Source: Prorocentrum cordatum
Taxonomy: Eukaryota
Reading direction: 5' to 3'
Assembly: GCA_963575745.1 (NCBI GenBank)
Contig: CAUYUJ010000002.1
Span: 1,922,001 to 1,986,000 of the forward strand
DNA: 64,000 bases
Part shown: piece after piece, positions 6,631 through 40,715 of the stretch
Layout of the letters: each line of letters begins with the position of its first letter
Numbering within the stretch: position 1 is the stretch's first letter
Position numbers and translations under genes: made by a program
The notes under the pieces: generated by a model
Database searches by the model: none
What the model was told of the DNA's origin: nothing
Seen by the model: the letters and a program-made list of their open reading frames with translations, nothing else

Positions 6631-6633
6631 ACT

Positions 6634-14096: not shown

Positions 14097-14097
14097 G

Positions 14098-14991: not shown

Positions 14992-15921
14992 CGGGGAAGG
15001 GGGGGAGGAGGAGGAGACGGAGGAGGAGGAGGAGGAGGAGCAGGAGCAGGAGCAGGAGGTGGAGGAGGAGGCGTTGCGAGTTGCGAGCTATCCCACGTGG
15101 TGGTCGATACGAACTACGAGCGGCGCTGCAGCTCAGCCTTGCTAAGCAGTTTCGGCCACTTCCCGTCTTGAAGTCTGGACAGATACTCCCTTCTATGGGG
15201 TGCGATTTGGCGTGTGCAGTCCTTGGCTAACTCTCGCAACTGGGAATGTGCGAAATAGCCACACTGGGTGCAAAACCAAACCCTCTGCACACGAGACAAA
15301 CGCATAATATGGGACCCCTCGACCCAGCCCCCAGCAATATGAAGCCGCCCCCCCTCAGGTATGGAATCATATCTTTCACACACGTGAACGGGCTGAAAGC
15401 ACGAGGACGAGTGCCATTCGGACACAGTGGCCTTGCTGGCAGATCCCCAACACCTAGTACATTTATGCCTGGTCTCATCCAGGCAATGCTCCGAAACGAA
15501 GCACGAACAAACGACGGACGAGGAGGAGGAGGAGGAGGACCCCTCTCCCTCACACGCGCGGGTCCGCCACGCTCCTCGGTGATCATGCAGTCCAGCGTGG
15601 CTCTGATGAGCCGCATCCTCACGTGCATCGCCTTGCTCTCTACCTGGAAGACAGCCGCCCGAACCTCGTCGGCGACTCTCCCTGCCTCGGCCGCCTGCGC
15701 GGCCAGTTCATCAACACATGTGTTACCGATGGCAAGCCAGGCGGGGGTTCCCGAAGTGACAACTGGCTCACCCGTGAGGTGCGAATTTACGAATAAGACA
15801 GACACTTGGCCCTGTCGGGCGTCCAGCTCACCACCGATGTTGCGCCACAGATCCTTATCGGCCCCTGTGGGCCTCTCATGTCTTCTCTGATGGAGCCCCT
15901 TGGTCACAGCTTCACAGTCTG

Positions 15922-15922
<1 letters not shown>

Positions 15923-15968
<46 letters not shown>
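15923..15968. repeat. (TA)n expansion inside the LINE-C RNase H coding region
   Basis: Interrupts ...EHPVY|ITDCEAV... Confidence 0.9.
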
Positions 15969-15970
<2 letters not shown>

Positions 15971-18900
15971 GGATGCTCGGCAGTGCAGGTGAGAGCTAAC
16001 ACAAAGGCACGTAGCTCCCCTCTGGGTACTGACTGATCTTCGCCCACGAGAGGCCCCTTGACCGATGCACGAATACAGCACGGGTCATACGAACTCAGCG
16101 TAGTTATCGCAAGCCCAACTCTTCGAAACCTGGGGCCCCCAGAGTCTTTGCCCCCAGAAGCGTCTCCGAAAACAACCATGGGTTGCGTATCCGTTCCTCT
16201 GCCCAAGCAGTGCTTAAGTTCGGAGCTGTTCGTGCCTATCAAACTCCAGGCTTCCTCAACTGGCGGTGGTGGTATACGTGTCCACGCCGCTGGAATGAGG
16301 CCTCGTCGCCAGAAACATGAGTCAGCTGCATGCTGCGAGAAAGCTGCACTGATTAAATACTCAGAGTCTTCGTGCGCCTTGGAACCTCGATTTTCTGAAC
16401 ACTCCCAGATTCGATGAAACTGTGTCTCTGGTTTCTCCTGGCACCTGGGACATAAAACCTCGTGGCCCCCAGCCATCTCATCCTGTCGCGTCTGCCGGGG
16501 CCAAGATCCTCCTGAAGCAATAGAAGCCATGAGCTCCCTGATCCTGAGCCCCTGGCGCACAGTCTGTAGTTGCCTTAACAGCCTGCGCAATGAAAAATTG
16601 TCGACGCCGTGCTGCATTCCTTCTCCGCATAAATGGCGTGCAGCTTGGCGCCATTGTTTAGCCTGCACAGTTCTGCTGGTGAAATCCTGAAGAAGCGGAC
16701 CAGGGTCATCTTGCAAAATGTTTCCAGAAAGCTCTGAAAGGTGAAATTTCCACGCCTCCAGATCGCCCACGTGGTCTTCAGGAGCCCTCCAATGCCAGGG
16801 TGCCTCTGGTATCCAGCCTGCCTCCAAAGGATGCATGATGACCGCTCCGTTCGGCCCTCTCACCAACCTTGAACGTTGCCCCTCTGGCGCCTCTCGCAAG
16901 CGCTGCAACATATGCGGCCATGCACGAGCTATGCCTGGCCGCATGGCGGGAATAGTCAGATACTGCTGCAGCCAGAGAGCCAGACATGCCCGAGGAAGTG
17001 TATACCCTGGATCCCATCCTGGACTCCGAAGGTCGAGAAGTGTGGTTAAGCATCGCCCCCGTTTGCCTGACCCACATACATGGCCAATCTGGCGGCGGCA
17101 GCGCAACATGGCACTGCCGAGAACTCCATGCAGCTGATGGCCGTACATCTCAGCGGCCATGGTGCCAGCTCGCGTGAGCCTGCTAGTAAAATGATACCGT
17201 TTAGCTGCCCTTGCAAGCTTGACCACTTTGTTGTGCATGCTTGCTGCCTTTACCACCCGTTTGTTGCGCCGTTGACGTACATGACGTTTCCCCCCACCAA
17301 GATCAATTCCCAAGTACCTTGCACGGCTACACGGCTTGACTTCAGCTCCAGCCGCTCGTAGCTGTTTTGAAATACTCTGGGCATCTTCTAGATGGGAACA
17401 CAGCACAACACTGTTGGGCGAAACTGCGAGGCCTTCGTGCGTGAGCTGGCGACATGTGCCCATGAGCCCACGCACAAGGGATTGTCGGAGACTTCGTCTG
17501 GATCCATGGACTCGCTGGGACCAGTCGTCGATCCAAATGCGCGCCCTCATGCGTGGATGAGCAGATGCGACGCGAGATAAAATATAACAAGTAAGACATC
17601 GGGCAAACCTCTTGCCCCCACGAAGGCCCTGGACGATAGAGTGAGTAGGATAAATAGGCTCCGACAAAGCCCCACCTTGTCCCAGCGTCCTCGGCAGAAT
17701 GCACTGGAGCAGCTCGGGAACTAAACATGATTGGAGGGTGCCCCAGTCTGAGTGCTGCGGGGATGAGATAAAACCACTCCATCGCATCATAGAAGCCTTG
17801 AATATCCAGGAGCCCGTGCCCTGTTGAACTACCCAATACTCCCGATACCCCCTCCTCACATACCCTCCTGAATGCTTCGCATGGGGCCGCATTGCCAGTG
17901 ATGGCTGCGTCCCACATGGGCTCAGACTCTGCTGCCCAAGTCTTAACATGTGGCTCGCGCGCGAGACTCCGTATTCTAGCTGTCATTGGCAGAAGTCCAA
18001 TAACTCTGTCCCCAGACTTTGTTGGGTAAAAGCCGACCGATCGTGAGGCCCAGTTGAGCAGGCCAAACCAAAGTTTCCTCGATGACCTCGTAGAGTTTTG
18101 AAAGTTCTGCCAATGCTACGTCGGGCATCCGCTCGACGTCTGTCGGACTTAAAACATCCACCCCTTGGCCTGCTCGCGCTCGCATGGCGTGAGCCGCTTG
18201 TCTGGTGTCGGAAACTGAAAGCGCTTCGAGGGGGTCAGCTCGTGCCGCGACCCGTGCTGCCTCGAAAGCCTCCAGGATTCGCGTATCCTGGTGTACGCTC
18301 GCCTTGGTCCAGAGGTCCCGAAATGGTTTTGCCCGCTGATCGACCACGTCCTTGGGTTGAAATAACTCCTGGGAGCCCTGGGTGATTTCCTCAGCGGGCA
18401 CTGGGTTTGACTTCGTAGTTTTGTCCAAAATTCCTGGCGCTTCTGCGCCGGCAATCCACTCCTTGAAATCGTGAAGAGCAGAGCGCAAGGCGCGCCCTCG
18501 GCAACGCGATGCAATCTTCTTAGCAGATGCAACAAACAAGGCGAGTTTATCTTGCGTGGCGCGCTTCGCACTGGTGGCAAGAATTGATGTCCAAGCGTCC
18601 CTGGGCGGGTCGGACCCGCGCAAAGCCCTCGATGTCCTTGCTCAGGAGATTGCCCACCAAGTTGCTTGCGCGCTTGCTCAAGCTGCTGCTGCTGAATAGT
18701 ACCATTCGCTCGAGCTCTGTGATTGTGTAGCCGCTGAAGAACCGCATGTGTTTTCTCCCGCCAAGAAGTGAGCCAATCTCTATAAGGCACCACTCGACTC
18801 TTGGTTGGGTGGCGAACCTCCTGCGCCACAAAACGACATCCACCAGCTCGGCTAATGGATGGGGGCCCTGTCACTCCATGATGCTCGATACCGTTCGTTC

Positions 18901-21900
18901 CAACGTGGTAATCCAAGATGCGCACAAAGCCGACGCATCCTCGATTGAGCCAGCTCCGAACCTAGCGGCTACGGACGATACAAACACATCAGGAGGTGGA
19001 CAGTCCTTTGGCGGGAAAAGGCCTACAGCAGCGCGTTCTTTGATCCGCGTCTCAGCGGGGATGTGAAAGGCCATTGCAGGCTCGTCATTTCCTGGCGGGG
19101 GCGGCTCTTGAAATGGGCTGGGGGCGGGGGGAATGCATTCGTTGGTGAACGATGCTCGAGCATTGAGAGTGACAAGGCCCCAGGCGATTGACGGCGTGTA
19201 TTGCGGTAACTTAAATATGTGGGGGGGGCCTCTGGGTTGCACGCCCGAGGCCTCTCGTCGGTAGACTGCGACGGTTGAAACTCAGGCGCTGCCGCATTCA
19301 ACCTCGAGACATTGTGAGATGGAGCTGGCCCCCCCACTTCGGTTCCCGCCTCGGGGCGCCTTCCCGTGCCCACGACGGCGCGGCCATGAGATTGCCCACC
19401 CTCGGCAGGTCCCTTATCCGAAAAAAAAACAACTGCTTTGACTCATGCCCCCGTCAGCGTAGGCAGAAGTCACGTGCTCGTTAATGTTCGCTGACGGCGG
19501 CGGCACAGAGCTGGGCTCACAAGCCTTGGGCTCCGCCCCGCTGGGGCCTGCCCCTGCTCGCCGGCTCTCGTTCACGACGGCGTGTCTGAGGATATGCTTG
19601 GCATCGGCAGCTCCCGCAGCTGAGGCGACCGAGCTAGAAAGCTCGCCCGATGGGTCTGAAGATGGAGGTCCGAAATTTGGCTCCATTGCCCATGGGTCTT
19701 CGTCTAGATCTTTATATTCGTCATATATGTCAAGCTCGCGGTCTCGGTCGGGTTCGACCTCGACCCCTGCCTGCTGCACTGGGGACATATCATTAGTCTC
19801 TGGCCACAGATCACCGAAGAGAACCTCGTAGTGCTCTCGGCGTTTCTCAGCAGGCAGCTCTAACTTGATTCGATTCGCCTGCTTCTGTGCCTGCGTCTTG
19901 GAGCCTGGGGCGGCCCTCTGTTGGGGTCGCTCGACTTGCGACAACCTCGCAGGCACGGCTAAACAGCGCGTGATGAGCTGCTTACCTGACGAGCGCATGG
20001 TGATACATATGCCGCAGTGGGTCTTCCACGGCACAGCTCACATGGCCTCCACCCTCGCAATGCATGCTGCCGCTGAGTGGCTCCTGACAATGCAATCTAT
20101 ATGGCTGCCCTGCTGGCCAGCGTTGCAAGTGTATCCGATGGGAGCCTTAACAATCTCGCCATCCACGCGTGTGAGGAAACCTGAACGGCTGAGGGCGTCG
20201 GGTGAAAGATTGTAGTCTCCGACCGCCACCCATGGCAGCTGCAGTGAGGCTAAAAATGCCCCTAGACGACTGAAGCGTAGCATGTTGTCGCCTGTCAGAC
20301 CCACGGATGTGAGTCCATAAAATGTAACTAGGACGGCTGAGTATCCAGACATGTGGATGAGAGCTGCAGTGAGACCATCCGTGACCAACTGGCCATCGGC
20401 TAGAAATTCACTGAGAGCGAGCTGAGGTAGTAACGAGCGGGCCTGCAGATGACCCGTCGCAAGGATCCATTCTCCACCTTCGGTGGCCCTGTCGGCACCC
20501 TGAGCGGTGCAGGCACGGCCAGTCAACCTCGCCCCATTCGCAAAAATCCTGAGCTTAGCTTTGCGCGCCTTTGGCGCCGACTCTTTAGCAAGGTTGGCCC
20601 GCGAGACATGCGTCTCCACAAGGCAATAAAAAATCAAACTGGCGATGCTCACTAGCCTGCAGAGTGAAGCTCCACACCTCCCCCCCCCAATGGCGGTGAC
20701 GTTGCCAAACATGATACGTGTGACCTCATTCCCCCCTGGCCGTGCTCGTGTCGAGTACGGAGCGCCGCTGGACTCTGGCGAAGGAGCCCGCGTTGATGCT
20801 GGCGACGCTGAACTTGAGCAGGTACACGTGGGCCCACATACCGAGGCACCTAGTCACAGCTGGGACTCGTCGATGACGTTGCCAGCTGCCTGAACCTCGC
20901 GCTCCTTCTGCCTGATCGCTTCGAACTTGGCGTTCGAGATGCGCTCGGCCTCCGCTTGGATGTGTGCCTCCCGCGCGGCGCCTGCGACGGCTGTGGCGGC
21001 GGCGGCTGCTGCTCCTTCGCTGGCGCTTCCTGCTGGGGCCGCTGCCCGCGTGGGGGAGGCGCCGCCGCCGCCTGTGCCGTCGGCGCCGTCGTCGGGCTTC
21101 CTCTTTTTTCGCGGCCCTCTGGTGAATGTCTGCCTGCACCTGCTTGGCGCGCTCCATCCACTGAGATACCTGATCTGCTTTGCCTGACAACGTCTTCTGC
21201 GTCTCGACAAGCTCGGTATGCATATTCCTGAGCTCCTCCTTCTCGTGCTCCTCGCACTCGAGGGCCTCGATATCCTGGAAGAGCTGTTCGTCTCAGTGCA
21301 GGCCAAGGGGCTGCCTGTCGTCCTGGGTGTGCTTCTTGCGTCCATTGGCGGCCAGGCCCTCTTGCGATGCGAGGATCTCTGTCGCCTGCTTCCGTGCCAA
21401 CTCCGCCGCCGCAACCTCCAAGGCGATCTTCTTCTCCTTGGTGCGGGCGTTCTCGAGATTCTTCTCTGAACGTGTGACTGCACGAACTGCTTGTTCGCGT
21501 CGATTGCCGGCATCCCGCAGCGCACCATCAGCTTGCTGAAGAGCCTGGAGCACATTGCCCGCCTGCTGCTGCTGAGCAGCCTTGAGCTGTGCCACCTGGT
21601 TCTCGAGACTCTTCTTCAGCTGCGGGTCGGTCGCCGCTGCCAACGTCTGCTGCATGTGCGACAGCACTTCCACGTCCTTGGTGTTCTTCCCTCTTGGAGA
21701 CTGCTTGGGCGTGGACTGGTTGCTGTTGCCATTGCCACCACTCTCCTCGTCGTCACCCATGAACTTAACTGACTTCTTTAGGATGCCTTTCTTCGGTGAT
21801 GGCGAATACACTTTGACTTTCATGCCACATCGATTGCACTTCATCTCCCCCTGCATGAGTTTGTCATTCTATTCAGCTTGTCCGCAACCCTTGCATTGAG

Positions 21901-22029
21901 ACCATTGACGGCTGGACATGGCTAGCCCCGCGGATTCTGTCACCACACTTGCCTGGAGGGGCTGAATATCCAGGGGCAATGGTGTGCCTCAAGCACCTCG
22001 GGCAGGTACCGCGGTGGGCTGGCGAGCTG

Positions 22030-22062
22030 GCCAAAATGGTGCTCGAGCCCAAGCTGCTTGAG
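22030..22062 (-). other. Tandem relict spliced-leader fragments at the LINE-C 5' end
   Basis: Minus strand (CCT)n-CTCAAG-CAGC-TTGGGCTCGAG-CA-CCATTTTGGC. Confidence 0.65.
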
Positions 22063-23143
22063 AGGAGGAGGAGGAGGAGAGGGAGGAGGGAGGAGGGAGG
22101 AGGAGGAGGAGGAGGAGGAGGAGGATGAAGAGGATGAAGAGGAGGAGGAGGAGGAGGAGGAGGAGGAGGAGGAGGAGGAGGAGGAGCAGGAGGAGGGAGC
22201 AGGAGGGGGGAGGGGGGGGGAGGAGGAGGATGCTGATGATGATGATGAGGAGTAGGAGGAGGAGGAGGAGGAGGAGGAGGAGGAAAAGGGAGGAGGGAGG
22301 AGGAAGGAGGGAGGAGGAGGAGGAGGAGGAGGAGGGGAGGAGGAAAAGGGGGAGGAGCAGGAGGAGGAGGAGGAGGAGGAAAAGAAGGAAAACATGGATG
22401 GGAAAAGGAGCAGAAAAGGGAGGAGGAAAAAAAAGGAGGAAAAGGAGGAGGAAAAGGAGGAGGAAAAGGAAGAGGAGGAGCAGGAGCAGGAGGAGGAGGG
22501 GAGGAGGAGGAGGAGGAGGAGGAGGAGGAGGAGGAGGAGGAGGAGGAGGAGGAGGAGGAGGGGGAGGGGGAGGAGGGAGGAGGGAGGAGGGAGGAGGAGG
22601 GAGGAGGGAGGAAGGAGGAAGGAGGAGGGGGTGAGGAGGGAGGAGGGAGGAGGAGGAGGAGAAGGAGGAGGAGGAGGAGGAGGAGAGAAAAGGAGGGGAG
22701 GAAGAGGGAGGAGGAGGGAAAGGAGAAAGAGGAGGAAGAGGGGAGGAGGAGGAGGAGGAGGAGGAGGAAAAGGGTAGGAGGGAGGAGGGGGAGAGGGAGG
22801 AGGAAGGAAGGAGGAGGGGAGGAGGAGGAGGAGGAGGAACATGGGGAGGAGCAGGAGCGGGAGGAGGGAGGAGCAGGAGGAGGAGGAGGAGCAGGAGGAG
22901 GAGGAAAAGGAGGAGAAGGAGGAGGAGGAGGAGGAGGAAGAGGAGAAGGAAGGGGAGGAAGAAGGAGGAGAGGAAAGGAGGAAGAGGAGGAAGAGGAGGA
23001 GAGGAGGAGGAGGAGGAAAAGTTAGGAGGGAGGAGGGAGGAGGAAGGAAGGAGGAGGGAGGAGGAGGAGGGAGAAGGAACATGGGGAGGAGCAGGAGCGG
23101 GAGGAGGAGGAGGAGGAGGAGGAGGAGGAGGAGGAGGAGGAGG
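22063..23143. repeat. ~1.1-kb (GGA)n polypurine tract
   Basis: Direct reading; contains an internal duplication (gaacatggggaggagcaggagcgggagg at ~22837 and ~23077). Confidence 0.95.

Positions 23144-24730: not shown

Positions 24731-24808
<78 letters not shown>
24731..24808. repeat. (GAT)n microsatellite
   Basis: Direct reading. Confidence 0.95.
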
Positions 24809-24810
<2 letters not shown>

Positions 24811-27409: not shown

Positions 27410-27592
27410 CAGGTTCGCGTCGTGTCGACCAGCGGCGACCCTGCCAGCGGCGTTCAACGTTGAACGCCGCTGGCGACCCAGAATCGTTCGATGTGGAACG
27501 ATTTGGACGTTTCGGAAACGGCCGATCGTTCAAGGTTGAACGATCCCCGCGGTGTCAGAGACCAACGCCGGAGTCGGCACGACACGAACTTG
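27410..27592. mobile_element. MITE-like palindromic element, copy 1
   Basis: Termini CAGGTTCGCGTCGTGTCGAC / GTCGGCACGACACGAACTTG are imperfect inverted repeats; second copy at 41661-41848. Confidence 0.75.
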
Positions 27593-28337: not shown

Positions 28338-28359
28338 TCCGTAGCCATTTTGGCTCAAG
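28338..28359 (+). other. Complete dinoflagellate spliced-leader sequence (genomic, retroposed)
   Basis: TCCGTAGCCATTTTGGCTCAAG, 22/22 to DCCGTAGCCATTTTGGCTCAAG; not followed by a GT donor; preceded by (TCC)n. Confidence 0.95.
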
Positions 28360-31300
28360 TCACCATGTCGCGCTGCGGCCGCATGGAGACCTCTGAGCCG
28401 AGGCCTGACCCAAACTGTTTCCAGCCACCATCAGGGGTGAGTTGGCACCCAAGCGATCTGCCGCTACACTCAGGGGCGTGCGGCCGCCCACTCCTGCTCT
28501 TTGTGCTGGCATTGCAGGCTGCCATCCATATCGCGCTCTCGTGCGCTCCGACCTCCGTCGCCGAGCACCGGCTGGACTTCGGCCTCACTGACGTCGCCGT
28601 CGCTCTTCTCCATAACCCGCTGGACGTCGACCTGCTCGTTCCCCAGCTGCAGCAGCTGCCACGTGGTGGCTCCGCGAAGGCCCTGGAGTCTGGAGCTCTC
28701 GACATCAACTTCCTGAAGCAGAACAGCAGTCAGTCCGACGGCAGCCCACAGTCTCAACCATGTCTTCTTCCAGCGAAGAACGTTCTACCTCCCGAAGTGC
28801 CCCATCTGCTAGCCGAAGAAGGAAAGACCGTCGACGAGAACGTGAACGACTCGACCAAGATCGTGCTGCTTGAGCTCCCCCAGGCCGTGCTGATAAAAAT
28901 GGTCGAGCAGCTGCAGGGCGCGCCGCTCTGGCCTCGCCCGGCGACGCCATCATTGCTACACAGGCAGCGCCACGCTCAGGGCGAGCATCTGGACATGCCG
29001 CTCGCTCTTGCCGCTCCGCAGCTCGTGCACACCATCAGCCGCCCCACTTCGCCATGGACGCTGGAGAAGAAGAAGCTGCTGACCCTGCCCGCGCCGCCGT
29101 CACCGTCAATGCACGCCAATTTCAAGCCGGTGAAGGGACCGAGCCGCCGCCGCAACTCCAAGGTGAAGCTCGTCGCCACGACCCTCTCGCTGCTGCTGAC
29201 CCATGGCGTGCTGGAGGCGCAGCAGCCGCTGGAGGAGCTGCCGCCGTCGGAGCCGCCGCCGATACCGATGCCGCTACGCCAGGCGACCCCGTTCGCCTCC
29301 CAGGTCTGGACCCCGAACTCGACAAAGCTCTTCAAGATCTCATGCAAGCTCAAGTCGCACATGCTGCCAGTACATCCCAAGTTCAAGCCAACGTCCTGCT
29401 CAATGATTCACGCGAAAGCTTTCGCCAACTTCTTGCGCAGCAAGTCCTAGCTACCGAACGACGGGTCGACACCCGTCATGACGTCGTCGCACGCACTCGT
29501 AGAGAACAAGACCGTCAAGCAGAGGAACATAAGAAGATGTGGATGCAGATCGACCAGATGCGAGAGACCCTCGCGCTCGCCGAGGCCCAGGCGCCGATCG
29601 CGGACCTTACCGAGCTCGCTGACTGGGACCGCGAGATCGACCCCACGATCTTCACCATCGGGGCGCAGCGGCCCATCTAGACCGCCGCGCCCACCCCGCC
29701 ATCCTGGAGTGGAACGAGAAGGCGTTCGAGCTTGCCGCCTTCCGCGACCTTGAGCGCGGCGCCACCCTCACGTCGTTCCAGGCGCTCTTCGCGGACGCAG
29801 CGGGGGCCACGCGGCGCGCTTGGCCATCTTTGGGCGGGCTGGCGCCAGGGCGCTCGCCCAGCGCGACGTTTACAATCCACCTCCGAGCCTGGCGCCAAGT
29901 TCCTCAACATCGACGTCGGGCACATCGCGCTCACGGATGCCGCCGAGTTCACCATGAAGTCTGCCGCGCCGCACCGCGACTTCGAGGCTCGGCGGCGCTC
30001 CCTGGCGCGCCGTGCAGCTCAGCTGCCGCGAGGCTCCTTAGGGGCCGCCGATCCCAAGAGGCCCAGGAAGGTCAACCGATCTCCCCTGCGCAGGGCCCCT
30101 CTCTGGGACACCTGGAAGCGCCGTCTGGTTATCCAGGTGATCAAAACCACCGACCCCGAGGGCCTCCCAGGAGTAGCCAGAGAGAGCTGCGCGTTGGTCG
30201 ATGCTCTCCGCGCTCACTGGAGCCACGTCCTCAAGCGCAAGCACGTCGTTGGCATCAAGGTCCAGCAGTGCATTGTCGAGCTCTCGCTCAGCCATCCCAT
30301 CGTTGACGTCGGTGGGCTCATCCAGTCGCACATCAGAGGCTTTCTGCTTCACGCGACTCCATCTGCGTCTGGGCTCGACCTCTTGCCGTACTGCGCCTGG
30401 CTCGCCGCGGGCGCGCCCATTGGCCCGCTGGAGGACCTTGCCTCGCACCTCTGCTTCAACTCCGTCTTCATCCTCGTCCTGAACGGCCCTGACTTCGCGA
30501 TCATGCCAAAGGGCGTCAACCTCATAGGCGTACTCACCACGGACCGCCGCCCTGGGGGCACTCGCCCGCCGCCCCTCAAGTACACCGATGTCAATACCAT
30601 CGCAGGCGAAACCAACATCCTCACCAAATCCGCTGTGGCAGAGCGGACTTATTACATGCAGCAGGGCTTGGTAGTGGGATGCATCTTCACCAAGCACATC
30701 ATCAACCCCGCCGCCGCGATGCGCCGCGCAGGAGTTCATCCAGAGTCCGACAAGCCCAAGCCCGTCTTTACCAGCTTCGAACCCGCGGCTGCGCCCCCGT
30801 CGCTCGGCAGCGTCTGGCCCCTCGCGTCGCTGGAATCCAGGGGCGTCCCTGAGTGCTCGATGAACTTCTCTCGCCAGCTGTACCTCGCCTCCAACTGCTT
30901 CCTCAAAGTTGATAGCGTTCGCCACTTCATGTTTCCGATTGAGACTGGCGCGGCCCAGGGCTGCCCCATGAGCGGCTTTGAATGGGTGATCGCCATGGGC
31001 CCGCTCGTTCACCACTCCGCCTCGTTCATCGCGACAGTCGACGGCGTGCTCATTCACGACAAGAGCTACCTGGGAGATGCTGCGGGCGACATTGGCCTCT
31101 TCACGTTCTCGTTCTCCACGCAGCGCGCTGACTCCGAGCCCTTGGCTGCCGCTCAGGAGCTCGCGCACCCCCACATGAAACATCGCAAGTATGTCGTCGT
31201 CCCGCTTCGGGCGAATACCTTTCAGATAGTGCAACGCGGCTGTGTTGCCACCGTTCGCGTTCACTTCTCATCAGTAGTTTCAATGCTCAGCCATGTCTCG

Positions 31301-32184
31301 CAGTTCGTATTGCTCGATCAGAAGCTTGCCCGCCGTGTACATTTACATGTTTCACAAGTTGCGCCGCCCCCTGCCTAACGCGTTTCGCAAAGTAGTTCTT
31401 ATTGCCATAGTGGAATTGTACCCGCCACAGATGCCAGCTGTTGCCGTCGCCATTCATTCTGCCGCTTTCATGCTCCGAGGGGAATGCGAGCTATTCTCCA
31501 CTGCCGCCCCGTTTCCAGCAGCTGCCGCGGCGGCGGCGAACCACGCAGCTGCCCGTGAAATTCGCGAGGCCCCGAGTGCTGAGCCACCGCGCCGCCCCAG
31601 GCTGCAGCGCGCGGTCGCGCTCACGCTGCAGCGGGCCTCTTTCTCGGTGCCTCTCTCAGTCACGCTCGAGATGCGTATCGCAGCCTGGGGCGTCTCTCAG
31701 CCGCCTCTGCCGCCAGAGGGTGCCGCGCGATGCGCTGCTCCCACGAATTCCATGTGCACCGCTCATCTGTGCTGGCGCTGGGTAGTTCGCAGGTGGACGG
31801 GCGAAGTCCCACTGCATGCACGCTCCCTCGATGATGTCGTGTGTGTTAGGGTGTCCAGCAGCACCCGATTCATTCCCTCTCTTCCTGTCCCGCTCGGTCC
31901 TCCTGTGCCTCCTCCGGTCCCCCATCTTGCCCCTCCTCCGCAGCTCACTTACATCCTGGGGCTTGAGCCCCACCGCGGCCTTTCCGTCTGATCCCGCGAA
32001 CGAGCTTTCGTTATCGTGGTCGAATCAGCGGATTACGCTCGCCATTCTCTTCTTTTACAACATGAAGTACGCCGCGCCGACCCCAGCTACGAGAGCTGCA
32101 GGGTTATGCGCCATCAAAGCATCGCTCTGGAAGTAGACGCGCGGTAGACGGACAGGAGCGGACAGACTTCTTACCCTCGTGCAC
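28338..32184 (+). mobile_element. Non-LTR retrotransposon 'LINE-A' (L1/Tx1-like RT), internally deleted and decayed
   Basis: ORF1-like coiled coil 29054-29680; degenerate RT 30350-31200 (SASGLDLLPYCAW, TRPPPLKYTDVNTIA, QQGLVVG, AAAPPSL, GAAQGCPMSG, AGDIG); C-terminal CVLGC..PDS remnant ~31840; no endonuclease visible; ends at gcac-(TCC)n. Confidence 0.8.
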
Positions 32185-32214
32185 TCCTCCTCCTCCCTCC
32201 CCTCCTCCCTCTCC

Positions 32215-32236
32215 TCCGTAGCCATTTTGGTTCAAC
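32215..32236 (+). other. Near-complete spliced leader at the LINE-B 5' end
   Basis: TCCGTAGCCATTTTGGTTCAAC (20/22), then gccATGG at 32240; preceded by (TCC)n. Confidence 0.9.
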
Positions 32237-34811
32237 GCCATGGCGCCCTCCCGTTGGGCGCACGCCTCTGCGAGGCGCTCTGAGCACCGAGGGAGGTGCT
32301 GGGCAGAGCGTAAAACAAATGTTACCAAGTTCTTTGCGGGCCCGCGCGCTTCGGCATGGCCCCAGAAAAGAAGGACCGGTCCAGCCCAGGCAGCCCCGCC
32401 GCGCCCGTCAGCACGGGCCTCCACGGAGCGGCAGCCCTGGCTGCGCAAGTCCTGCCAGACGGCCACGGGCGCAAGGGTCCGCAACAGCGGCTGGAACCTC
32501 GTGTGTTCGGGCTGCAAGCTGCACAAAGGGGTCGCGTTTGGCGAGGTCGTCGCGGGCGCCCCCAGCAAGCCAGCACCACGGGTCAACAGCCCGCCGCCGA
32601 CCGCCGCCGGGCCCACGGGCGACGGCGCGCCCTGGCAGTATAAGGCGATGGAGGTCAAGATCCGCCAACAGCTGCAGGCCAAGCACGACGGGGACCTCGA
32701 GCTGGCTCGACGCGAGGTCGCTGCGGCCGCGACTGGTGGTGACGCAGCGCCGCCTCTGGCAGCGGCGGCGCCCCCAGCAGACAGAAGACGCCGTCGACCT
32801 CGCGCGCATCAAGAAGCTGGCGGCTCTCATCAAGGCGGGCGAGCACATGGGCGACTCGGAGAAGGACAACGTGCAGCGCTGGAAGACGGAGCTCGAGGCG
32901 CTGCGCACCAAGCGCCAGGAGACGCTCCCCCTCGGCAAGCGCGACCACGCCTGCAACCGCGACGTCAAGCGCTTGGAGGGCCTCTCTGCTTCGATAGGCA
33001 AAGACGTTGAGGCGACCAAGGCCGAGATCGCGCACCTCGAGGTCAAGCTGGCCCTCCAGCAGGAGCAGCAGGCCAAGCATGACAAGGACCTCGCGGCGGC
33101 CCGCGCGCTCCTCGCTGACCTCGGCAAGCAGCGATTCCACGGCGGGAAGGAGTCGGAGGCCATCCCCCCCCTCGAGGACTTCGTGGCGAAGCTCGAGGAC
33201 CATCCCTACGACGAGGGCCTCGACGGCGCCGACGCGCTCGAGATCTGCCAACAGTCCCAGGAGGCCAGGGACCGCCTCCTCCAGAAGGTCTCGAAGGCCA
33301 AGGCGGCGCGCGACCGACGGGCCGAGGCCCGCCGAGCCCCTTGGCCATCAGGTCCCCGAGGACGACGAGAACGCCCGCAGCGCGGCCGAGCGCTGCGCCC
33401 AGGCTCACCAGCCCCCAGCTGTCCATGGAGGCCGCCCGCGCGGCAGGGGACGACGCGGAGGCCCGTGGCCGCGAGGCATTGGCTTGGCAGCCTGCAGGCG
33501 CGGCCGGCGGGCCCCCTGCCCCCGCTGCCCCCGCGGCCGCCAGTGGAGGCCAGCATCATGCCTAACACGGATCAGGTGGACGTCACCGTCCTCTACAGCA
33601 ACATCACGGAGTGGGCCCCCCAGGCCAGGGGCTTCTTGCAGTCCGACCGCGCCATGCGCTTCGACGGCATCGCCTTCGTCGAGCTGCGCCGCGCGGAGAA
33701 ACGCGCCATGTCCATCACCGGGGCAGTCCGCAAGGACGGCTGGAAGGCGACGCACTCCCCTGGGGTCTCCACGGGCAAAGGCGGCGTCACAGGAGGCGAG
33801 CTCGTGGCGGTGCGCGCGCACCTCCAGGCCACCACCTTCGACCATTGGCGCGGCGCCAAGGGCGCTGCGCTCTGCGGCTTCGCCCCCGTGGTCCTGCGCG
33901 CGGCGGCGGGCAACATCGTTGTGGTGGCGCTCTACCTGCGCCCTGCGCTCGGCTTCGGCAAGCGCAACAGGGGCACCCTCGTCGCGCTGGGGGCGCCCCT
34001 CGCGACGCAGAAGGCCCCGTGGATCGTCCTGGGCGACTGGAACCACGAGCCGCGCCAGCTCGCCCAGTCGGGCTGGGTCGCCAAACTGGGCGGCGCGGTC
34101 GCCCTCCCCGACGTCGCCACCACGTGCGACAAAGGGCAGGGCCGCCTGCTGGACTACGGCCTCGCCAAGGACGGCCACCAGCATTTGTTTTCGCTGAAGG
34201 ATGTCCTGAAGGCGCCGTGGGCGACGCACTGCGGGCCCCTGCTCACTTCCGCGGCGCCCGCCAGAGATGGCGGCATCAGGCGCTGGACGCCCCGCGCAGC
34301 CTCCCGGCTACCAAGCGCGCCAAGGCGGCAGCGGACCCCAACAGCAGGAGGTCCAGGCAGAGCCATGCCGCGCTCCAACGGCGGGCGGCGGCCCTGCCGG
34401 CAGGGCTCGGCGCCGACTTCGAGGAGGTGCAGCTGGGCCTCTGCCGCAGCAGCGCGGAGGGCACGCCAGCCAGTGCCCTGCCCAGCCCCCGCCAGCATCC
34501 CGTGGGCCATGGCGCCAGCCCACGGCCAGCCCCACCCCCTGCGGATGGAGGCGGCCCCCTCCCTGCCGCCCAGGCCGACCTCGACCAGTTCCACGATTGC
34601 TTGGCCTCGCCCCAGGTCGAAGGTCACGCGGAGGTTGCGGGTCTACGCAGCCCCCGCCACGCCGGCGCCGTCGCCCGCGCCAACTTCTCGGGCGTCTGGG
34701 ACCCCTTCGACGACCTGGCCGAAGAGCAATTCTTCGAGGCTGTCGAGGGGCACCCGCCAGCAGAACGGCGGGACGAGCCCTACGGGGCTGGCTTCTATAC
34801 TGCGATGGGTT

Positions 34812-35090
34812 CTTCAGTTCAATCACAGGTCGGCCCGCCCGATGAAAGGGGCGCCCTCGCTGGTGGAGAGGGGCCGAGCAGTGCGGCGTCCCAGGCAGGC
34901 TGCACTTACCAGCAGGCCTTCCGTTTCTTCAGTTCATTTACAGGTCGGTCCGCCCGATGAAAGGGGCGCCCTCGCTGGTGGAGAGGGGCCGAGCTGCGCG
35001 ACGTCCCAGGGGTGCTGCATTTACACGAGCAGGCCTCCCATGTCTTCAGCACTGTTGCAGGTCAGCCCGTTTGGTAAAAGGAGCGCCGCC
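34812..35090 (+). repeat. ~116-bp tandem repeat (about 2.4 units) in the LINE-B APE-RT linker
   Basis: cttcagttca..acaggtcgg.ccgcccgatgaaaggggcgccctcgctggtggagaggggccgagc repeated. Confidence 0.85.
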
Positions 35091-38000
35091 ATCGAGCGGC
35101 AGGCCCGGGAGGCCTCCGAGGCCGCCGGGCGCGCTGGGGCGGCCAGCGGGCGCGGGGCGCTCCCGCCCGAGCGCGGGTTGGCCGAGTCGGGCCGGGACTC
35201 GGCCATTTCCCGCGCGGGCGACGCGGCCGAGGCCGTGCGGGGGGCTGCTGGCGCGACGGCTGCCGGGCGCGCGCGCCGGGCCCGCCGGGCGCGCCGCGCG
35301 GGCCCGCGAAAACCCATGTGAAATGCCAAACGCTACGCGCGCGAAGCGTTTGGCATTTCACTAAAGTTTTCGGGGCCTCCCCGGGCAGCCCCGGAGCCAA
35401 AGCGAGGTCGCCCTGGGCCCCGCCAGGGCCGTCGAAGGGGGCGCCGACGCCGCCGCTAGGAGCGCCTCCGGAGCCGCCGGGCGCGCTGGGGCGGCCAGCT
35501 GGCGCGGGGCGCCCCCGCTCGAGCGCGGGCTGGCCGAGTTGGGCCGGGACTCGGCCAATTCCCGCGCGGGCGGCGCGCCCCTCGGCGCGGCGCGGCAGGA
35601 AACCGTCGCAAGGGCAGGCCCCAGGCGACACCCCCGCCGCCCCGTCCCTCGCCGCCGCACCCTGCCGGCACAGCGCTGTGCAGGTTAACTCCGACCTGCT
35701 TTGCCACCCCTTCCTGGACAAGCGCGAGGACCAGGCCCACGCCCTTGCGGAGCTCCACGGCAGCTGGGTCGCCCAGGTCGAGGCCGCCATCCTCCAGCAC
35801 GAGGGCTGCGACAAGGCGAACTGGGCCGCCCGCCAGGGCAGGGCGCGCGGCTTCGGCGCCACCTGGAGGCAGAGGGCGGCTAGCCCAGGCAGGGCCCACC
35901 TCCGCCATCCTGAGGCGGACGCCTGGGCCACCCACAGCGCCAACCTCACGGCCATCCTCGCGCTGGCTGCCAGCGGCAAGGACCACCGACAGATGCTGTG
36001 GCGCCTCGACTTGCACCGCAGCACCCTCGCGGACATCGGCAAGCTCTCGGCCGCCAAGCGCGCGGACCAGCTGGCGGACTACCAGCGCAGGGCCACGGTG
36101 ATCCTCGACCTGCCCCGTCAGGAGCAGGCGGCCGCCAGGCAGCTCGCCCGCGAACTCGCTGGCGACGCCGCGCGGAGGGCCCTCCAGCACGGGCGTCAAG
36201 CCCTTGCGACCTGGGCGGCCAAGGCCACGCTGGGCCAGCTCCACCGCTGGACCAAGGACGGTGACTTGGAGCGGCTCGAAGACCCCACCGACGACGGCAC
36301 CCTGGCGGACCCCGTCGAGGTCATGCTGGCCAAGTCCACCACATGGCAGTAGGTCTGGACCGCCCCCGCCGACCGCGCGAAGGCCATACCAGTAGCTCTG
36401 GCCTCGCTCCGTGTTCTCGCGGCGCAGGAGACCCTCGAGCCCATCGCGGTGGACGGCCTCAACGCAGCCACTGGCAAGCTGGGCCCCCGAAAGGCCCAGG
36501 GCGTCGACAGGCTCAGTCCGCTGGACGTCGAGCGCCTCCCCGACTGCGCCAAGGAGCAGTTCTTGGCCGTCCTCCACCAGGCTGAGGCGCACTGCATGTG
36601 GCTGCCGCAGCTCAACGGCACCCTGGGAGCGGTAGCGGGCAAGCCTGCGGGAGGTCACCGAGTTCTCGCCCTGCTCCCCATGCCAGTGCGCATCTGGGCT
36701 CGCGCGCGCAGTGGCGTCGTCGACCAGTGGACCCAGGGCCTCGAGGACCACTGGGACACGGCCATCAAGGGGTCGTCCGCCCTGCGCGCGACCCTCTACC
36801 GAGCCACTCTAGACGAGACGGCCCAGGGCATGGGCATCCACCACGCCTCGCTGTACGCCGACATCGCGAAGTTCTTCGACTCGCTGGACCTCGCTTGGCT
36901 CATCGAGCGCGCGGTCGACCTCGGCTTCTCCCCCACTGTCCTGGCCCTGGAGGTCGAGGCTTTCCTGGCGCCGCGCTACTTGAAGCGAGGGGCATGGGTC
37001 GACCCCCCGATCTTCGCCAGCCAGTCCAACGTCGCGGATCCTGCAGGCTGCCCAGGCCCAGGCCCATGTCACCACTATCTGGTCGTACATCGACGACACC
37101 GTTGGCGCGCGGAGGGCACCAAGGCCGTCGTCACAGACTCCCTCGCTGTTGCCGGCGCGGCCCTGGCCCAGCAGTGCAGCGACGGCCGCCTCGCGGTCCC
37201 CCCCAAGACCGCGCCCGTTGCGTCCTCGGCTGCCCTTCGCAAGGACATCGGCAGGCGCGTGAGGCAGCGCGGAGTCCCAGGCCACGGGGCCCACCACATG
37301 GTCGACCTCGGGGTGGACGTCGTCACGGGCAACAGGAGGTCCCAGCGCAAGGCCCATACCAGGCACAGGCGCGCGGCCCTCCGTGCCAAGCGGGTGCAGC
37401 GCCTTCGTCGCGCGGCGGCGCGGCTTGGCAAGCTCGGCGCCAGTCTCCATGCCGCTGGCGTGCAGCCGCAGGCGGTGTTCGGGCACGAGGTCTGGGGCAT
37501 CGCGCCCTCCAGACTTACCCTGCTCAGGCGCTCCGCAGCGGCGGCGGCTGCGGGAACGGGCCCTGGGCGATGCCTCGACACAGTCATGGCCCTGCTCTAC
37601 GGCGACAAGGACCCCGTCATCAAGCTGCGCACCCAGCTCGCGCACGAGTGGCTCACGCAGTGGTTCGCCAGGCCAGATTTGCACAAGCGCGTCCTGCGCA
37701 TCTGGCCCCACGTGCACCAATGGCTCCTCAGAGCCAAGACGGGGAGATGGCGCAAAGTCCATGGGCCTGTTGCGGCGGTCATCGCCACGCTCATGGACGC
37801 AGGCTGGCGGCCCTCGTCACCCCACTCCTGGTCGCGCCCCACTGCGCAGGGCGACGAGGAGCGGAGAATCCCGCTCGCTGACCACCACGGCCAGCTCCAG
37901 GTGGACTTCCACAAGTTCTCGGAGCTGCTGGACGACCTCGCCGTGGACCTCGACCGCCTCCGCCGGCAGCGGGCCAGCCAGCGCGCCCACGGCGCTGGCG

Positions 38001-40715
38001 ACGTCTCCCAGGTCAAGCGTGAGCTCGACCACTGCGCCAAGCACGGCCACTGGCAGGAGTGGGCCCTCAACTACCTCGTCGCGGTTGGGGGGCAGTGGCC
38101 ACGGCAGCGGCAGATTGCCGCAGGATGCCAGCGCGACGCAGTCTGCCAGCGATGCTTCGGCGAGGAGGAGACGCTCGAGCACCGCATTTGGCGTTGCCCC
38201 AGCCCGCCTACGACCAGACGGCCCACCTCATCCCCCAGGCACTCAGCGGCAGCGAGGAGTGCCCTGCCCTCTGGCTCAGGGGCGTTGACCCTGCCAGCCG
38301 CACCACCCCGCCGGCACCGACCTGCGACGACGAGCTCCTCGTCCACGTCGGGGCCTCATGGCCCACAGGCGGCATCCAGCCCATCACGATATTCGGCGAC
38401 GCCTCGGGGGGCAAGCACGGCGCGGGCGAGCGAAGGCGTCGGGTTGGCGTCGGACTCGCGGTCATCGAGGCCCGCGGCCCGCAATGGCAGTTGGCAGCAG
38501 GCGCGGTCGCGATTCTCCCTGGGCGGCGGCAGTCGGTCCCGCGCGGGCAGATTTTCGCCATCGCCCGCGCCCTCTAGCAGCATGGAGGCCAACATCCACT
38601 ACGTCACCGACAACATGCCGCTCCTCAACGGGTGGAACGCCCAGCGCTGGCTCAACCTCGGCAAGGGAGCCAACAGCGACCTCTGGGCCCGCATCGGCAG
38701 GTTGCTCCAGGCCCACCCGAACCGCCAGGTGGGCGTCACCTGGACTCCGTCCCACCAAGAGGATAAAAGGGGAACCGATGATCTCACATTTCCTCGCAGC
38801 GGGCAGCTGCTGCGACGACAGGCTCGCCAACCTCGGTGCCGAGGTGGCTGCAGCCTCAGCCAACCGCAGCGCGCCGCACGCGGACCGCTGGGACGTCATC
38901 GCCTCGCAGGTCAGGCGGCGGGCCCGCCGGGCCCTGCTCGACGCGGCGGGCGGCGACCCATGGCTATCGGAGAGGCCCGCGGCGGAGCAGGTGGCCCGCC
39001 CCTCTGCCCTCCAACGGGCCATTGACGACTCGCCGCGCCAGCTTGTCACCGTGGGCCAGGGCAAGTGGAAGTGCCTGCTTGGCCGGCAGCTCTTCCCCGC
39101 GGCCACGCTTCGTGGGGCGGCTGCTTCCGCCTGCGCCGCCACTGAAGCGGACTGGGCCCCGTTCGACCACGTCCGCAAAGTCCCTGCCGGCATGCAGATC
39201 GCCATGGGGGCGGGCGTGGCCCACGCCTCCCACCGCCTCTACGAGTGGCCAGCCCACAACCTCTACTTCTGCGGCGACTGCGGGGCTCACGGCGCAGCAA
39301 TGGGCATGGGGCTGCGAGGCGAGCGCAAGGGCGAGACCACCCGCAAGACGGACGAGGCCCTCAGGAGGATCGCCAAGGGCGTCCACCCGTCGCACCAGGG
39401 GCCGCCCAAGCCCGTTATCGAGGCCAACGCAATTTCCGCCACGATCGCCCACGCGGTCGGCGGCGGATTGGCCCCCGCGGGCCCCGCGATCCCCGAGGAC
39501 CTTTCCGAGGCCGGTGCCACGGAGCACCAGCTCGAGGCGGTCATCGGCGTCCCCCATGGCCAGGCGCTCCAGGCGGCCCAGCGCCCCTCCCGCAAGCAGG
39601 CTCGGAAGCCAGACGGGCCCCAGCCAACGGTCGGCGGAGGCGGCGCGCGCCCTCGGACCCCGAGGCGGGGCAAGGGGAGCCGCCGCCGCGTTGGCCACGG
39701 CGGCCACCCCGCGCGCCCCCGGCGGGCGGTCCGGGCGGGCCCCGCAGGCCCAGGAGGCTTCCGAGGCCGCCGGGCGTGCTGGGGCGGCCAGCTGGCGCGG
39801 GGCGCTCCCGCCCGAGCGCGGGCTGGCCGAGTCGGGCCGGGGCTCGGCCATTTCCCGCGGGGGCGACGCGGCCGAGGTCGCCAGGGCCGCCGAAGGGGGC
39901 GCCGACGCCGCCGACGGGAGCGCCTCCGGAGCCGCCGGGCGTGCTGGGGCGGCCAGCTGGCGCGGGGCGCCCCCGCTCGAGCGCGGGCTGGCCGAGTAGG
40001 GCTAGGACTCGACCAATTCCCGCGCGGGCGGCGCGCCCCTCGGCGCGGCAGAGGCCGAGCAGGGGGCCGCTGGCGCGGCGGCTGCTGGGGCTCCTGGGGG
40101 GCCGCCAGGGGGCACAGGCCAGCGGCGCCGCAGCCAGCCTAGCCAGACGACGCCGAACCGTGACGGCCAGACCGACGTCACCGTGCAGGCGACAGGCGGC
40201 CCCCTCGGTCCTCGCCTCTGGCTGCCTGACTACACGTCCCCGCTCTCGGGTGCGGTCACGGCGTACTGCGCGGCCAGCCACCCTGCCGAGCTGGACCCTA
40301 ACCAGACCCACCGGCAGCGCGCTGCACCGACATCACCCCGCCCGCCGCTTGGCCCCGCGGAGGCACAGCGGGAGGAAGGCCCCACGGCCTGGGGGGCAGG
40401 CGAGCGCACCCTGGCCCAGAAGATCGCTCACCTCCTGAGCGCGGTGCGAGCTGGCAGTGGCGAGGGGAGGGCGGACACGCCACGGGCGTCGCCGGAGCGG
40501 GCGAGCGCGGCGCGCGACCCGTGTGTGCCTGGCGGGGTATAGGTTAACCGCCCCGTCCCTCGACTTCTGGTGCCCTGGACCTCGTGAGCCTGCTCATGGG
40601 GGCCAGGGGCGCCGTGGAAGCTGCGCCCACTCCTCCTCCTCCTCCTCCTCCCCCTCCTCCTTCCTCCTCTCACCCCCTCCCCTCCCTCCCCTGCAGATCT
40701 TGCGGCGCCACCAGA

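What the first reader, a model, noticed from the sequence alone, without database searches (positions are those of the whole stretch)
14992..40690. All three LINEs are bounded by (TCC)n on both sides in the same sense orientation and form head-to-tail arrays
Seen: (TCC)n-SL-LINE-A-gcac(TCC)n-SL-LINE-B-ccac(TCC)n on plus; (CCT)n[22063-23143]-LINE-C-(CCT)n[14992-15070] on minus; no poly(A) tails. The SL starts with TCC and merges with the upstream tract. Known: some AP-endonuclease LINEs target microsatellites. Inference: either (TCC)n target specificity or a self-templated (TCC)n tail that seeds the next insertion, with TCC microhomology to the SL aiding 5' joining; this could help explain the abundance of GGA/TCC tracts here.
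Basis: partly seen in the sequence, partly recalled or inferred. Interest (0 to 1): 0.85.

Follow-up and report, generated by a model that had tools for sequence, protein, structure and literature searches.

The report
TCC-tailed, spliced-leader-capped dinoflagellate LINEs
Three decayed jumping genes (LINEs) in a dinoflagellate genome each sit between runs of TCC repeats in their own reading direction, and a distant relative from another sample ends in the same repeat, so the repeat looks like part of how these elements insert, a known style of LINE not yet described in this group.

Summary
The window is dinoflagellate nuclear DNA. Elements A (28338-32184, +) and B (32215-40630, +) begin with the dinoflagellate spliced leader, DinoSL. 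C (22062-15071, -) keeps only its last six bases. All six element ends abut same-sense (TCC)n, and none has a poly(A) tail. The chance for three independent 5' ends is about 3e-6.

All three are APE-type LINEs. B and C are 27-35% identical in protein and belong to a large APE-RT-CCHC-RNase H clade. A is a separate lineage whose 54%-identical relative carries APE and RT domains. Direct Pfam scans of the decayed window copies found nothing significant.

Independent support comes from three results:
- A metagenome contig (L001), 79% identical to B with an open 1331-aa ORF, ends at the homologous 3' terminus followed by at least 80 nt of (TCC)n.
- A very abundant short repeat upstream of A has variable 5' starts. 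Its fixed 3' end is followed by TCC-rich DNA in 38 contigs from four runs.
- One contig joins that repeat, an 8-nt TCC-like spacer and a 5'-truncated A.

Most likely, the (TCC)n tail and the (TCC)n target are coupled in target-primed reverse transcription. I could not separate tail from target. A copia LTR element also sits inside a (TCC)n tract, so a general hot spot remains a live rival.

The parts
27910..28104 (+). Repeat D: very high-copy short repeat with variable 5' starts and a fixed 3' end. Probably the 3' piece of another non-LTR element or SINE.
   Evidence: Depth in bin 27800-28250 is 3184/18171/579/299 in runs X1-X4, against 35/16/3/1 in the next bin. Loose ends lie before 27910, 27987, 28035 and 28041. 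Loose ends behind 28104 are TCC/C-rich in 8+23+4+3 contigs.
28254..28337 (+). (TCC)n tract upstream of A, merging with the T of the leader.
28338..28359 (+). DinoSL relict at the 5' end of A. ATG follows 5 nt later.
   Evidence: exact 21-mer.
28338..32184 (+). LINE A, 3847 nt, decayed. The RT core at 29834-30895 is 54% identical to P0005 (APE+RT). No APE was recognised in this copy.
   Evidence: Multicopy in runs X1-X4.
32185..32214 (+). (TCC)n-like tract between A and B: the 3' flank of A and the 5' flank of B.
32215..32236 (+). DinoSL relict at the 5' end of B (2 mismatches). ATG follows 3 nt later.
32215..40630 (+). LINE B, 8416 nt, full length but broken. Coiled-coil ORF1; APE about 33580-34283; RT 36128-38200; CCHC about 38150-38200; RNase H 38200-38770; C-terminal zinc-finger region to about 39620; 3' UTR with two hairpins. 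The catalytic DD is lost, there are frameshifts and one in-frame stop, and an extra roughly 1 kb with tandem repeats lies at 34615-35603.
40631..40692 (+). (TCC)n/C-rich tract at the 3' end of B.
22063..23143 (-). 1.08-kb imperfect (TCC)n tract upstream of C.
15071..22062 (-). LINE C, 6992 nt, decayed. Truncated leader CTCAAG at 22062-22057 and a degenerate relict at 22039-22027; APE 20379-19951; RT 18590-16000 (WIDD kept); CCHC; RNase H 15922-15587; C-terminal region to about 15150; stop at 15116-15114.
14993..15070 (-). (TCC)n then C-rich tract at the 3' end of C. It is also the upstream flank of the copia element.
6634..14992 (-). Ty1/copia LTR retrotransposon inserted in the tract. LTRs 14992-14098 and 7523-6634 are 97% identical (TGTGG...CCACA). 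A polypurine tract precedes the 3' LTR. RVT_2 lies at 7655-9340.
6496..6633 (-). (TCC)n tract downstream of the copia element. Probably the other half of the tract that followed C.

Best explanation
A, B and C are APE-type LINEs of a dinoflagellate. Their RNAs are capped by spliced-leader trans-splicing, so full-length DNA copies start with DinoSL. Their 3' ends are joined to (TCC)n instead of poly(A). I think the LINE RNA ends in, or is primed on, (UCC)n. The endonuclease nicks the (GGA)n strand of an existing (TCC)n.(GGA)n tract. The freed (GGA)n 3' end anneals to the RNA end and primes reverse transcription. This fixes the element's orientation relative to the tract and leaves (TCC)n on both sides. 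It also makes every new tail a landing site for the next element, which produces head-to-tail stacks.

Shown:
- LINE identity of the three elements.
- DinoSL at the 5' ends.
- Same-sense (TCC)n at 6 of 6 ends.
- The same tail position in one diverged outside copy.
- A TCC-rich continuation behind an abundant 5'-variable repeat.

Inferred:
- The nick site.
- The annealing step.
- That the tract is present in the RNA.
For: - Junction reads. Chance estimate.
- LINE identity: B and C are 27-35% identical in protein across APE, RT, CCHC and RNase H. The B RT region finds 2644 relatives at E<=1e-3. Of 10 scanned, 5 have RNase_H, 4 RVT_1 and 2 Exo_endo_phos, and P0010 has all three. The APE part of P0010 maps to B 33663-34283 and to C 20379-19951. 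The clade profile hits human LINE-1 ORF2p at E 1.5e-10 and RNase HI at 1.4e-7. The RT core of A is 54% identical to P0005, which has Exo_endo_phos (8.9e-7) and RVT_1 (1.3e-5).
- Independent copy: L001 is 79% identical to B over 4086 nt, has an open 1331-aa ORF with YIDD, CCHC and RNase H motifs, and reads ...GCTGCGCCATCCATCC followed by at least 80 nt of (TCC)n to the contig end.
- Other copies: A and B are multicopy in four runs (977, 743, 238 and 69 contigs laid). Repeat D has variable 5' starts, a fixed 3' end at 28104 and TCC/C-rich letters behind it in 38 contigs. One contig joins the D end, CCTTCTCC and A from 31898.
- 3' UTR: the hairpins of B and L001 are conserved, with 5 of 29 pairs compensatory (only two sequences).
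- Leader origin: in run X2, contigs join the leader to internal B positions, which fits trans-splicing of B-family RNA.
Against: - Only one outside copy with a readable 3' end was obtained, and its contig stops inside the tract. An orthologous locus in a related species cannot be excluded.
- Read laying masked the three tracts, so the 3' ends of other A and B copies were not seen.
- No outside copy of C was found.
- Tail and target cannot be told apart from DNA alone, and no RNA 3' end was seen.
- A copia LTR element also lies inside a same-sense (TCC)n tract.
- The window is rich in microsatellites of many kinds. About half of the roughly 14 TCC tract clusters are not next to any element I could recognise.
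- The 3' ends of A, C and D share no motif and fold no better than shuffles.
Confidence: 0.6

Rival explanations
1. (TCC)n.(GGA)n tracts are general insertion hot spots or safe havens, for example through non-B DNA, breaks or open DNA. Any retroelement accumulates there, and the LINEs have no (TCC)n tail or endonuclease specificity of their own.
For: The copia LTR element 6634-14992 has TCC/C-rich DNA on both sides, while same-sense tracts cover under 2% of the window. Two unrelated LINE lineages (A versus B/C; no A ORF matched the B/C profile even at E<=10) share the same tract, which a property of the host DNA explains easily.
Against: Orientation is the same for 3 of 3 LINEs, for L001 and for repeat D. 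A strand-neutral hot spot does not predict this. The tract starts at the homologous nucleotide in B and L001. The copia case is a single event and has no clean target-site duplication.
Confidence: 0.22
2. The tract is only a 3' tail made by the reverse transcriptase (slippage on a short terminal TCC) and there is no target preference. The upstream tracts are simply the tails of older elements in a retroelement-dense patch.
For: The upstream tract of A follows repeat D, and the upstream tract of B is the tail of A. Microsatellite tails made by slippage are established for several LINE clades (recalled knowledge; no paper read for it).
Against: Without target preference, an upstream same-sense tract at 3 of 3 leader-defined 5' ends has a probability of about 3e-6. 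C has 1.08 kb of tract upstream with no recognisable element in front of it.
Confidence: 0.1
3. The tracts arose after insertion, or the arrangement was built by recombination between tracts, so the association says nothing about the insertion mechanism.
For: The 1.08-kb tract has internal duplications. The window holds many other expanded microsatellites.
Against: The leader abuts the tract to the nucleotide in A and B. The tail sits at the same position in a copy only 79% identical. TCC-rich letters lie behind repeat D in four runs.
Confidence: 0.05

Closest known systems
Microsatellite-specific APE-type LINEs: Waldo (ACAY)n, Mino (AC)n, Kibi (TC)n, Koshi (TTC)n, Dong (TAA)n
   Same: These are APE-type LINEs found inside one microsatellite in a fixed orientation, so the repeat lies on both sides. 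They are listed in PMC3812793 (passages read).
   Different: Those are animal elements of other clades; their clade names are recalled, and placement was not tested here. The repeat here is (TCC)n. The host is a dinoflagellate. The copies carry a trans-spliced leader at the 5' end. Two unrelated LINE lineages share the same repeat.
DinoSL-tagged retrocopies of dinoflagellate genes
   Same: A DNA-encoded spliced leader at the 5' end shows that a mature trans-spliced RNA was reverse transcribed (PMC7245778, PMC12014239 and PMC5585692; passages read). C shows the truncated CTCAAG form that PMC12014239 describes.
   Different: Here the tagged RNA is the LINE's own message, not a host gene. In the passages I read of those three papers, and in the listings of my searches, I saw no description of leader-capped LINEs or of their 3' ends.
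LINEs with short-repeat 3' tails and a 3' stem-loop read by the RT, such as I factor (TAA)n and eel UnaL2 (TGTAA)n
   Same: There is a short-repeat tail instead of poly(A), and conserved hairpins lie just upstream of the tail in B and L001.
   Different: This comparison is recalled and no paper was read for it. The hairpin evidence rests on two sequences only. No function was tested.
Head-to-tail LINE stacks built by insertion into tails or terminal repeats: Chlorella Zepp, Bombyx TRAS/SART, Drosophila HeT-A/TART
   Same: Elements stacked in one orientation with the tail repeat at each joint.
   Different: This comparison is recalled and no paper was read for it. Those stacks are telomeric. 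Nothing here indicates a chromosome end.

Membership tests
APE-type non-LTR retrotransposon (LINE) | Reverse transcriptase of the LINE type | tested here: met
   The B/C clade profile hits LINE-1 ORF2p at E 1.5e-10. Of 10 relatives, 4 have Pfam RVT_1. A's relative P0005 has RVT_1 at 1.3e-05 (bit score 25.5, under Pfam's curated cut-off of 29.6). Direct Pfam scans of the window copies gave nothing at E<=0.01.
APE-type non-LTR retrotransposon (LINE) | Apurinic-like endonuclease N-terminal to the RT | tested here: met
   Met for B and C. The APE of P0010 (Pfam 1.3e-6) aligns to B 33663-34283 and to C 20379-19951, and direct hits are weak (0.029 and 0.081). Not met for the A copy itself: only its relative P0005 has APE.
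APE-type non-LTR retrotransposon (LINE) | No LTRs, 5' truncation among copies, target-site duplication | tested here: inconclusive
   No terminal repeats of A, B or C appear in the self-comparison. Variable 5' starts were seen only for repeat D, plus one 5'-truncated A in a contig. Target-site duplications cannot be read inside a microsatellite.
Microsatellite-specific LINEs (works like Kibi/Koshi/Waldo/Dong) | Independent copies flanked on both sides by the same repeat in one orientation | tested here: inconclusive
   3 of 3 copies in the window have it on both sides. The 1 outside copy obtained has it on the 3' side only. The tracts were masked in read laying, and no genome was held.
Microsatellite-specific LINEs (works like Kibi/Koshi/Waldo/Dong) | Phylogenetic placement in the R1, Tx1 or R4 groups | not tested
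   No reference LINE set was at hand. The presence of RNase H and of a CCHC motif after the RT was noted.
DinoSL-tagged retrocopy | DNA-encoded DinoSL directly at the 5' end | tested here: met
   A is exact, B has 2 mismatches, and C is truncated to CTCAAG plus a degenerate relict.
Ty1/copia LTR retrotransposon (element 6634-14992) | Two LTRs with TG..CA ends, a polypurine tract, RVT_2, a 5-bp target-site duplication | tested here: met
   The LTRs are 97% identical over 895 nt. Ends are TGTGG...CCACA and AGAGGAGGAGAG precedes the 3' LTR. RVT_2 scores 6.9e-13. The target-site duplication was not found.

The most novel reading that the evidence does not exclude
Unrelated dinoflagellate LINE lineages have converged on (TCC)n because the tract does two jobs. 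On the bottom strand it primes reverse transcription. On the top strand it places a polypyrimidine tract directly in front of the AG-containing leader relict, so each new copy is born with a trans-splice acceptor. Read-through transcription of the one-directional gene arrays could then re-cap it, with no promoter of its own. That loop would also seed the genome's TCC/GGA microsatellites. It could be the same kind of process behind the single dominant trinucleotide repeat reported in another dinoflagellate: (TTG)n covers about 19% of the Polarella genome (PMC7245778, passage read).
Probability: 0.15. Interest if true: 0.85.

Novelty: new variant of a known kind. Interest (0 to 1): 0.58.

Why it matters
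Dinoflagellate genomes are huge, repeat-rich and full of retrocopies. Which elements do the copying, and how they choose sites, is still open: the papers I read call the reverse-transcribing machinery unknown or presumed (PMC5585692 and PMC12014239, passages read).

These loci give concrete, testable features of the LINEs involved:
- a leader-capped 5' end;
- a (TCC)n 3' end instead of poly(A);
- insertion into same-sense (TCC)n;
- at least one relative that still looks intact (L001).

If this holds genome-wide, it gives a signature for annotating dinoflagellate LINEs and their dependent short elements. It also offers a cause for part of the microsatellite load. And it raises the question of why host retrocopies, whose mRNAs end in poly(A), would be handled by machines that use (TCC)n.

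Tried and rejected
- Whole-genome census: no genome is held for this window. Earlier findings of this scan: none.
- Direct Pfam on 15 and then 42 ORFs of A, B and C: nothing at E<=0.01, only weak Exo_endo_phos and RNase_H hints.
- Word-based homologue search with the C RT ORF and with the 5' ORF of A: no hits. What the first 1.5 kb of A encodes is unknown.
- PDB sequence search with B alone: 0 hits. The clade profile was needed.
- Sequencing runs: no RNA holder listed, and all holders had small shares. Expression is therefore untested.
- Read laying masked the three TCC tracts, so loose ends at the 3' ends of A and B were not reported.
- IMG/VR scans with A and B proteins and alignments: no relatives.
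- The first alignment for the metagenome scan was too diverse. A closer one gave a single locus.
- DinoSL scan of IMG/VR as a control: 0 of 134 distinct leader occurrences have TCC upstream. Nearly all lie in AT-rich virus-like contigs and none is a LINE, so this says little about nuclear LINEs.
- Homopolymer runs (a translated tail) in the 155 stored proteins: none.
- Rfam and tRNA scans of the window: nothing. Repeat D has no second copy in the window.
- The 3' ends of A, C and D fold no better than shuffles.
- Literature searches for leader-capped or TCC-tailed dinoflagellate LINEs: the listings and the passages I read described no such element. Subscription journals and Repbase were not searchable.
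Full report
**What the window is.** The exact dinoflagellate spliced leader (DinoSL, CCGTAGCCATTTTGGCTCAAG) lies at 28339-28359, and a copy with 2 mismatches lies at 32216-32236, both on the plus strand. None is expected by chance. The DNA is 55-74% G+C and dense in microsatellites and tandem repeats. No whole genome is held for it, and this scan has no earlier notes on it.

**The observation.** I read all junctions.
- Plus strand: (TCC)n 28254-28337, leader 28338-28359, element A to 32184 (...gtgcac), a 30-nt TCC-like tract, leader 32215-32236, element B to 40630 (...gcgcccac), then (TCC)n and C-rich DNA to about 40692.
- Minus strand: a 1.08-kb imperfect (TCC)n (23143 to 22063), then CTCAAG (the last six leader bases) and 17 nt later a degenerate CCATTTTGGCcAG, element C to 15071 (...cgcaacgc), then (TCC)n to 15004 and C-rich DNA to 14993.
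- None of the three 3' ends is A-rich.
- With an objective tract definition, same-sense tracts cover 431 nt (plus) and 1195 nt (minus) of 64 kb. A random oriented point touches one with probability 0.0146. All six ends do, which gives 3.1e-6 for the three leader-defined 5' ends alone.

**Are they LINEs?** Direct Pfam scans of the decayed ORFs gave nothing at E<=0.01, only weak Exo_endo_phos (B 0.029, C 0.081) and RNase_H (C 0.31) hints.
- B and C match each other at 27-35% protein identity in colinear blocks.
- A full HMMER search with the B RT region found 2644 relatives (104 at E<=1e-30), many of 1500-1900 aa.
- Of 10 relatives scanned, 5 have RNase_H, 4 RVT_1 and 2 Exo_endo_phos. P0010 has all three. 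Two have no family and one only a weak HTH hit.
- The APE part of P0010 aligns to B 33663-34283 and to C 20379-19951.
- The clade alignment shows FYDSIDL, VDD..QR.EGT and CPRCG...ET..HR.W.C motifs. Its profile hits human LINE-1 ORF2p (E 1.5e-10) and RNase HI (1.4e-7) among solved structures.
- B itself has lost the catalytic DD and carries frameshifts, one in-frame stop and an extra roughly 1 kb of repeats. C keeps WIDD.
- A matches neither B nor C, and the B/C profile finds no A ORF even at E<=10.
- The RT core of A (29834-30895) is 54% identical to P0005, which has Exo_endo_phos (8.9e-7) and RVT_1 (1.3e-5).
- So two unrelated APE-LINE lineages are present. What the first 1.5 kb of A encodes is unknown.

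**Other copies.** Contigs of four public runs laid at >=85% identity show that A and B are multicopy families. 977, 743, 238 and 69 contigs were laid, most of them 85-95% alike. The tool masked the three tracts, so the ends of other A and B copies were not reported.

Three things could still be read:
- The 27910-28104 stretch upstream of A's tract (repeat D) is far more abundant than A, at depth 3184 against 35 in run X1. Its 5' starts vary. Its 3' end is fixed at 28104 and is followed in other copies by TCC/C-rich letters (8, 23, 4 and 3 contigs in the four runs). This is the pattern of a 5'-truncating retroelement with a TCC-rich tail.
- One contig joins the D end, CCTTCTCC and A from 31898 onward. 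That is a 5'-truncated A sitting in the start of D's tail.
- Contigs of run X2 join the leader to internal B positions (33592, 35507, 39693). This fits trans-splicing of B-family RNA.

**An independent B-family copy.** A scan of metagenome contigs with a B-family alignment returned one locus, L001.
- It is 79% identical to B over 4086 nt.
- It has an open 1331-aa frame with YIDD, CCHC and RNase H motifs.
- It ends ...GATGCTGCGCCATCCATCC followed by at least 80 nt of (TCC)n up to the contig end. This is the position homologous to B's ...GGAAGCTGCGCCCAC|(TCC)n.
- The 3' UTRs of B and L001 share two hairpins, with 5 of 29 pairs compensatory (only two sequences).

**A non-LINE in the same tract.** The 97%-identical 895-nt repeats at 6634-7523 and 14098-14992 are the LTRs (TGTGG...CCACA) of a Ty1/copia element on the minus strand.
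- It has a polypurine tract before the 3' LTR and RVT_2 at 7655-9340 (E 6.9e-13).
- Its upstream flank is C's (TCC)n. Its downstream flank is another (TCC)n, 6633-6496.
- It therefore split the tract that followed C. No clean target-site duplication is visible.
- (TCC)n is thus not a landing place for LINEs alone.

**Mechanism.** I think it most likely (about 0.6) that the tail and the target are coupled in target-primed reverse transcription.
- A nick in the (GGA)n strand frees a 3' end that pairs with a (UCC)n end of the LINE RNA.
- This fixes orientation, leaves (TCC)n on both sides, and turns each tail into the next landing site.
- The leader at the 5' end, with an ATG 3-5 nt behind it in A and B, shows that the template was a mature trans-spliced message copied to its very end.
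- The nick site, the annealing step and the presence of the tract in the RNA are inferred, not shown.

**Rivals.**
- A general hot spot for any retroelement (0.22). The copia element and the sharing of one repeat by unrelated lineages speak for it. The uniform orientation and the identical tail position in B and L001 speak against it.
- A tail without target preference (0.10). Upstream tracts at 3 of 3 ends speak against it.
- Post-insertion expansion or recombination (0.05).

**What is known.**
- APE-type LINEs that live in one microsatellite are established in animals: Waldo, Mino, Kibi, Koshi and Dong (PMC3812793, passages read).
- DinoSL relicts on retrocopied host genes, including the truncated CTCAAG form, are established (PMC7245778, PMC12014239 and PMC5585692; passages read).
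- Song et al. propose that the TTT(T/G) in the relict acts as a promoter motif (PMC5585692). That would also serve a leader-capped LINE.
- In five searches and the passages I read, I found no description of leader-capped LINEs or of a (TCC)n tail or target in dinoflagellates. Subscription journals and Repbase were out of reach.
- I therefore file this as a new variant of a known kind. It works like a microsatellite-specific LINE. Membership in the named animal clades was not tested.

**Limits.**
- One outside copy carries most of the weight for the claim that this is a family property. Its contig ends in the tract, so an orthologous locus cannot be excluded.
- About half of the roughly 14 TCC clusters in the window are not next to anything I could recognise.
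- Expression, RNA 3' ends and endonuclease specificity are untested.

Noticed in passing
Loci L002-L120 (IMG/VR contigs, many named GVMAG): The exact DinoSL is encoded in DNA 134 distinct times in AT-rich (median 21% G+C) contigs filed as giant-virus bins, often many times per contig. Each copy sits behind a conserved AT-rich motif (for example ATTGATAAATCAATTTTTTATTTTTTATTTTTAAATATAAATTTTA) and is followed by unrelated sequence. In 113 of the 134, an ORF of at least 80 aa starts 0-192 nt (median 49) downstream. This looks like viruses of dinoflagellates writing the host's spliced leader into the 5' ends of their own genes. One literature search listed 4 of the 5 papers holding all four terms; none of those titles or abstract starts describes this, and none was opened.
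   Followed up: partly
window 6634-14992 (-): A Ty1/copia LTR retrotransposon with 97%-identical 895-nt LTRs. Each LTR holds a 13-nt partial DinoSL-like string (ACTTTGGCTCAAG, at 14450-14438 and 6986-6974) that is not preceded by TCC.
   Followed up: partly
window 27411-27601 and 41661-41857 (+): An 87%-identical direct repeat lies about 0.7 kb upstream of the A-B pair and about 1 kb downstream of it. I did not examine whether the pair sits inside a larger repeated unit.
   Followed up: no
window 34810-35600 and 39744-40049 (+): B carries internal duplications: a 115-bp tandem repeat at 34810-35049, and 35099-35591 similar (83-95%) to 39744-40049 near its own 3' region. Relative to the 91%-identical protein P0008, about 1 kb is extra at 34615-35603.
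   Followed up: partly
window 1-1450 (+): An open frame of degenerate repeats (...EPDTISYSA...CEKGEAK...) runs into a stretch that, from memory, resembles the C-terminal part of HSP70 (...FTMRNTL...NQLAERDEFE.KRKELE...). About 200 nt later comes (TCC)n at 1643-1711. Pfam gave no hit and I did not test the resemblance.
   Followed up: no
window 45014-46624 versus 49949-48234; 43152-43959; 58404-59868: Large arrays of 53/106-nt units occur in inverted orientation to each other (71% identical over 1.7 kb). There are also 178-nt and roughly 101-137-nt tandem arrays rich in G.
   Followed up: no
window 32234-32236 joined to 33592, 35507 and 39693 in run X2 contigs: Contigs carry the spliced leader joined directly to internal positions of B-family sequence. 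They could be trans-spliced sub-length transcripts or retrocopies of them. The run's RNA label is only a guess.
   Followed up: no
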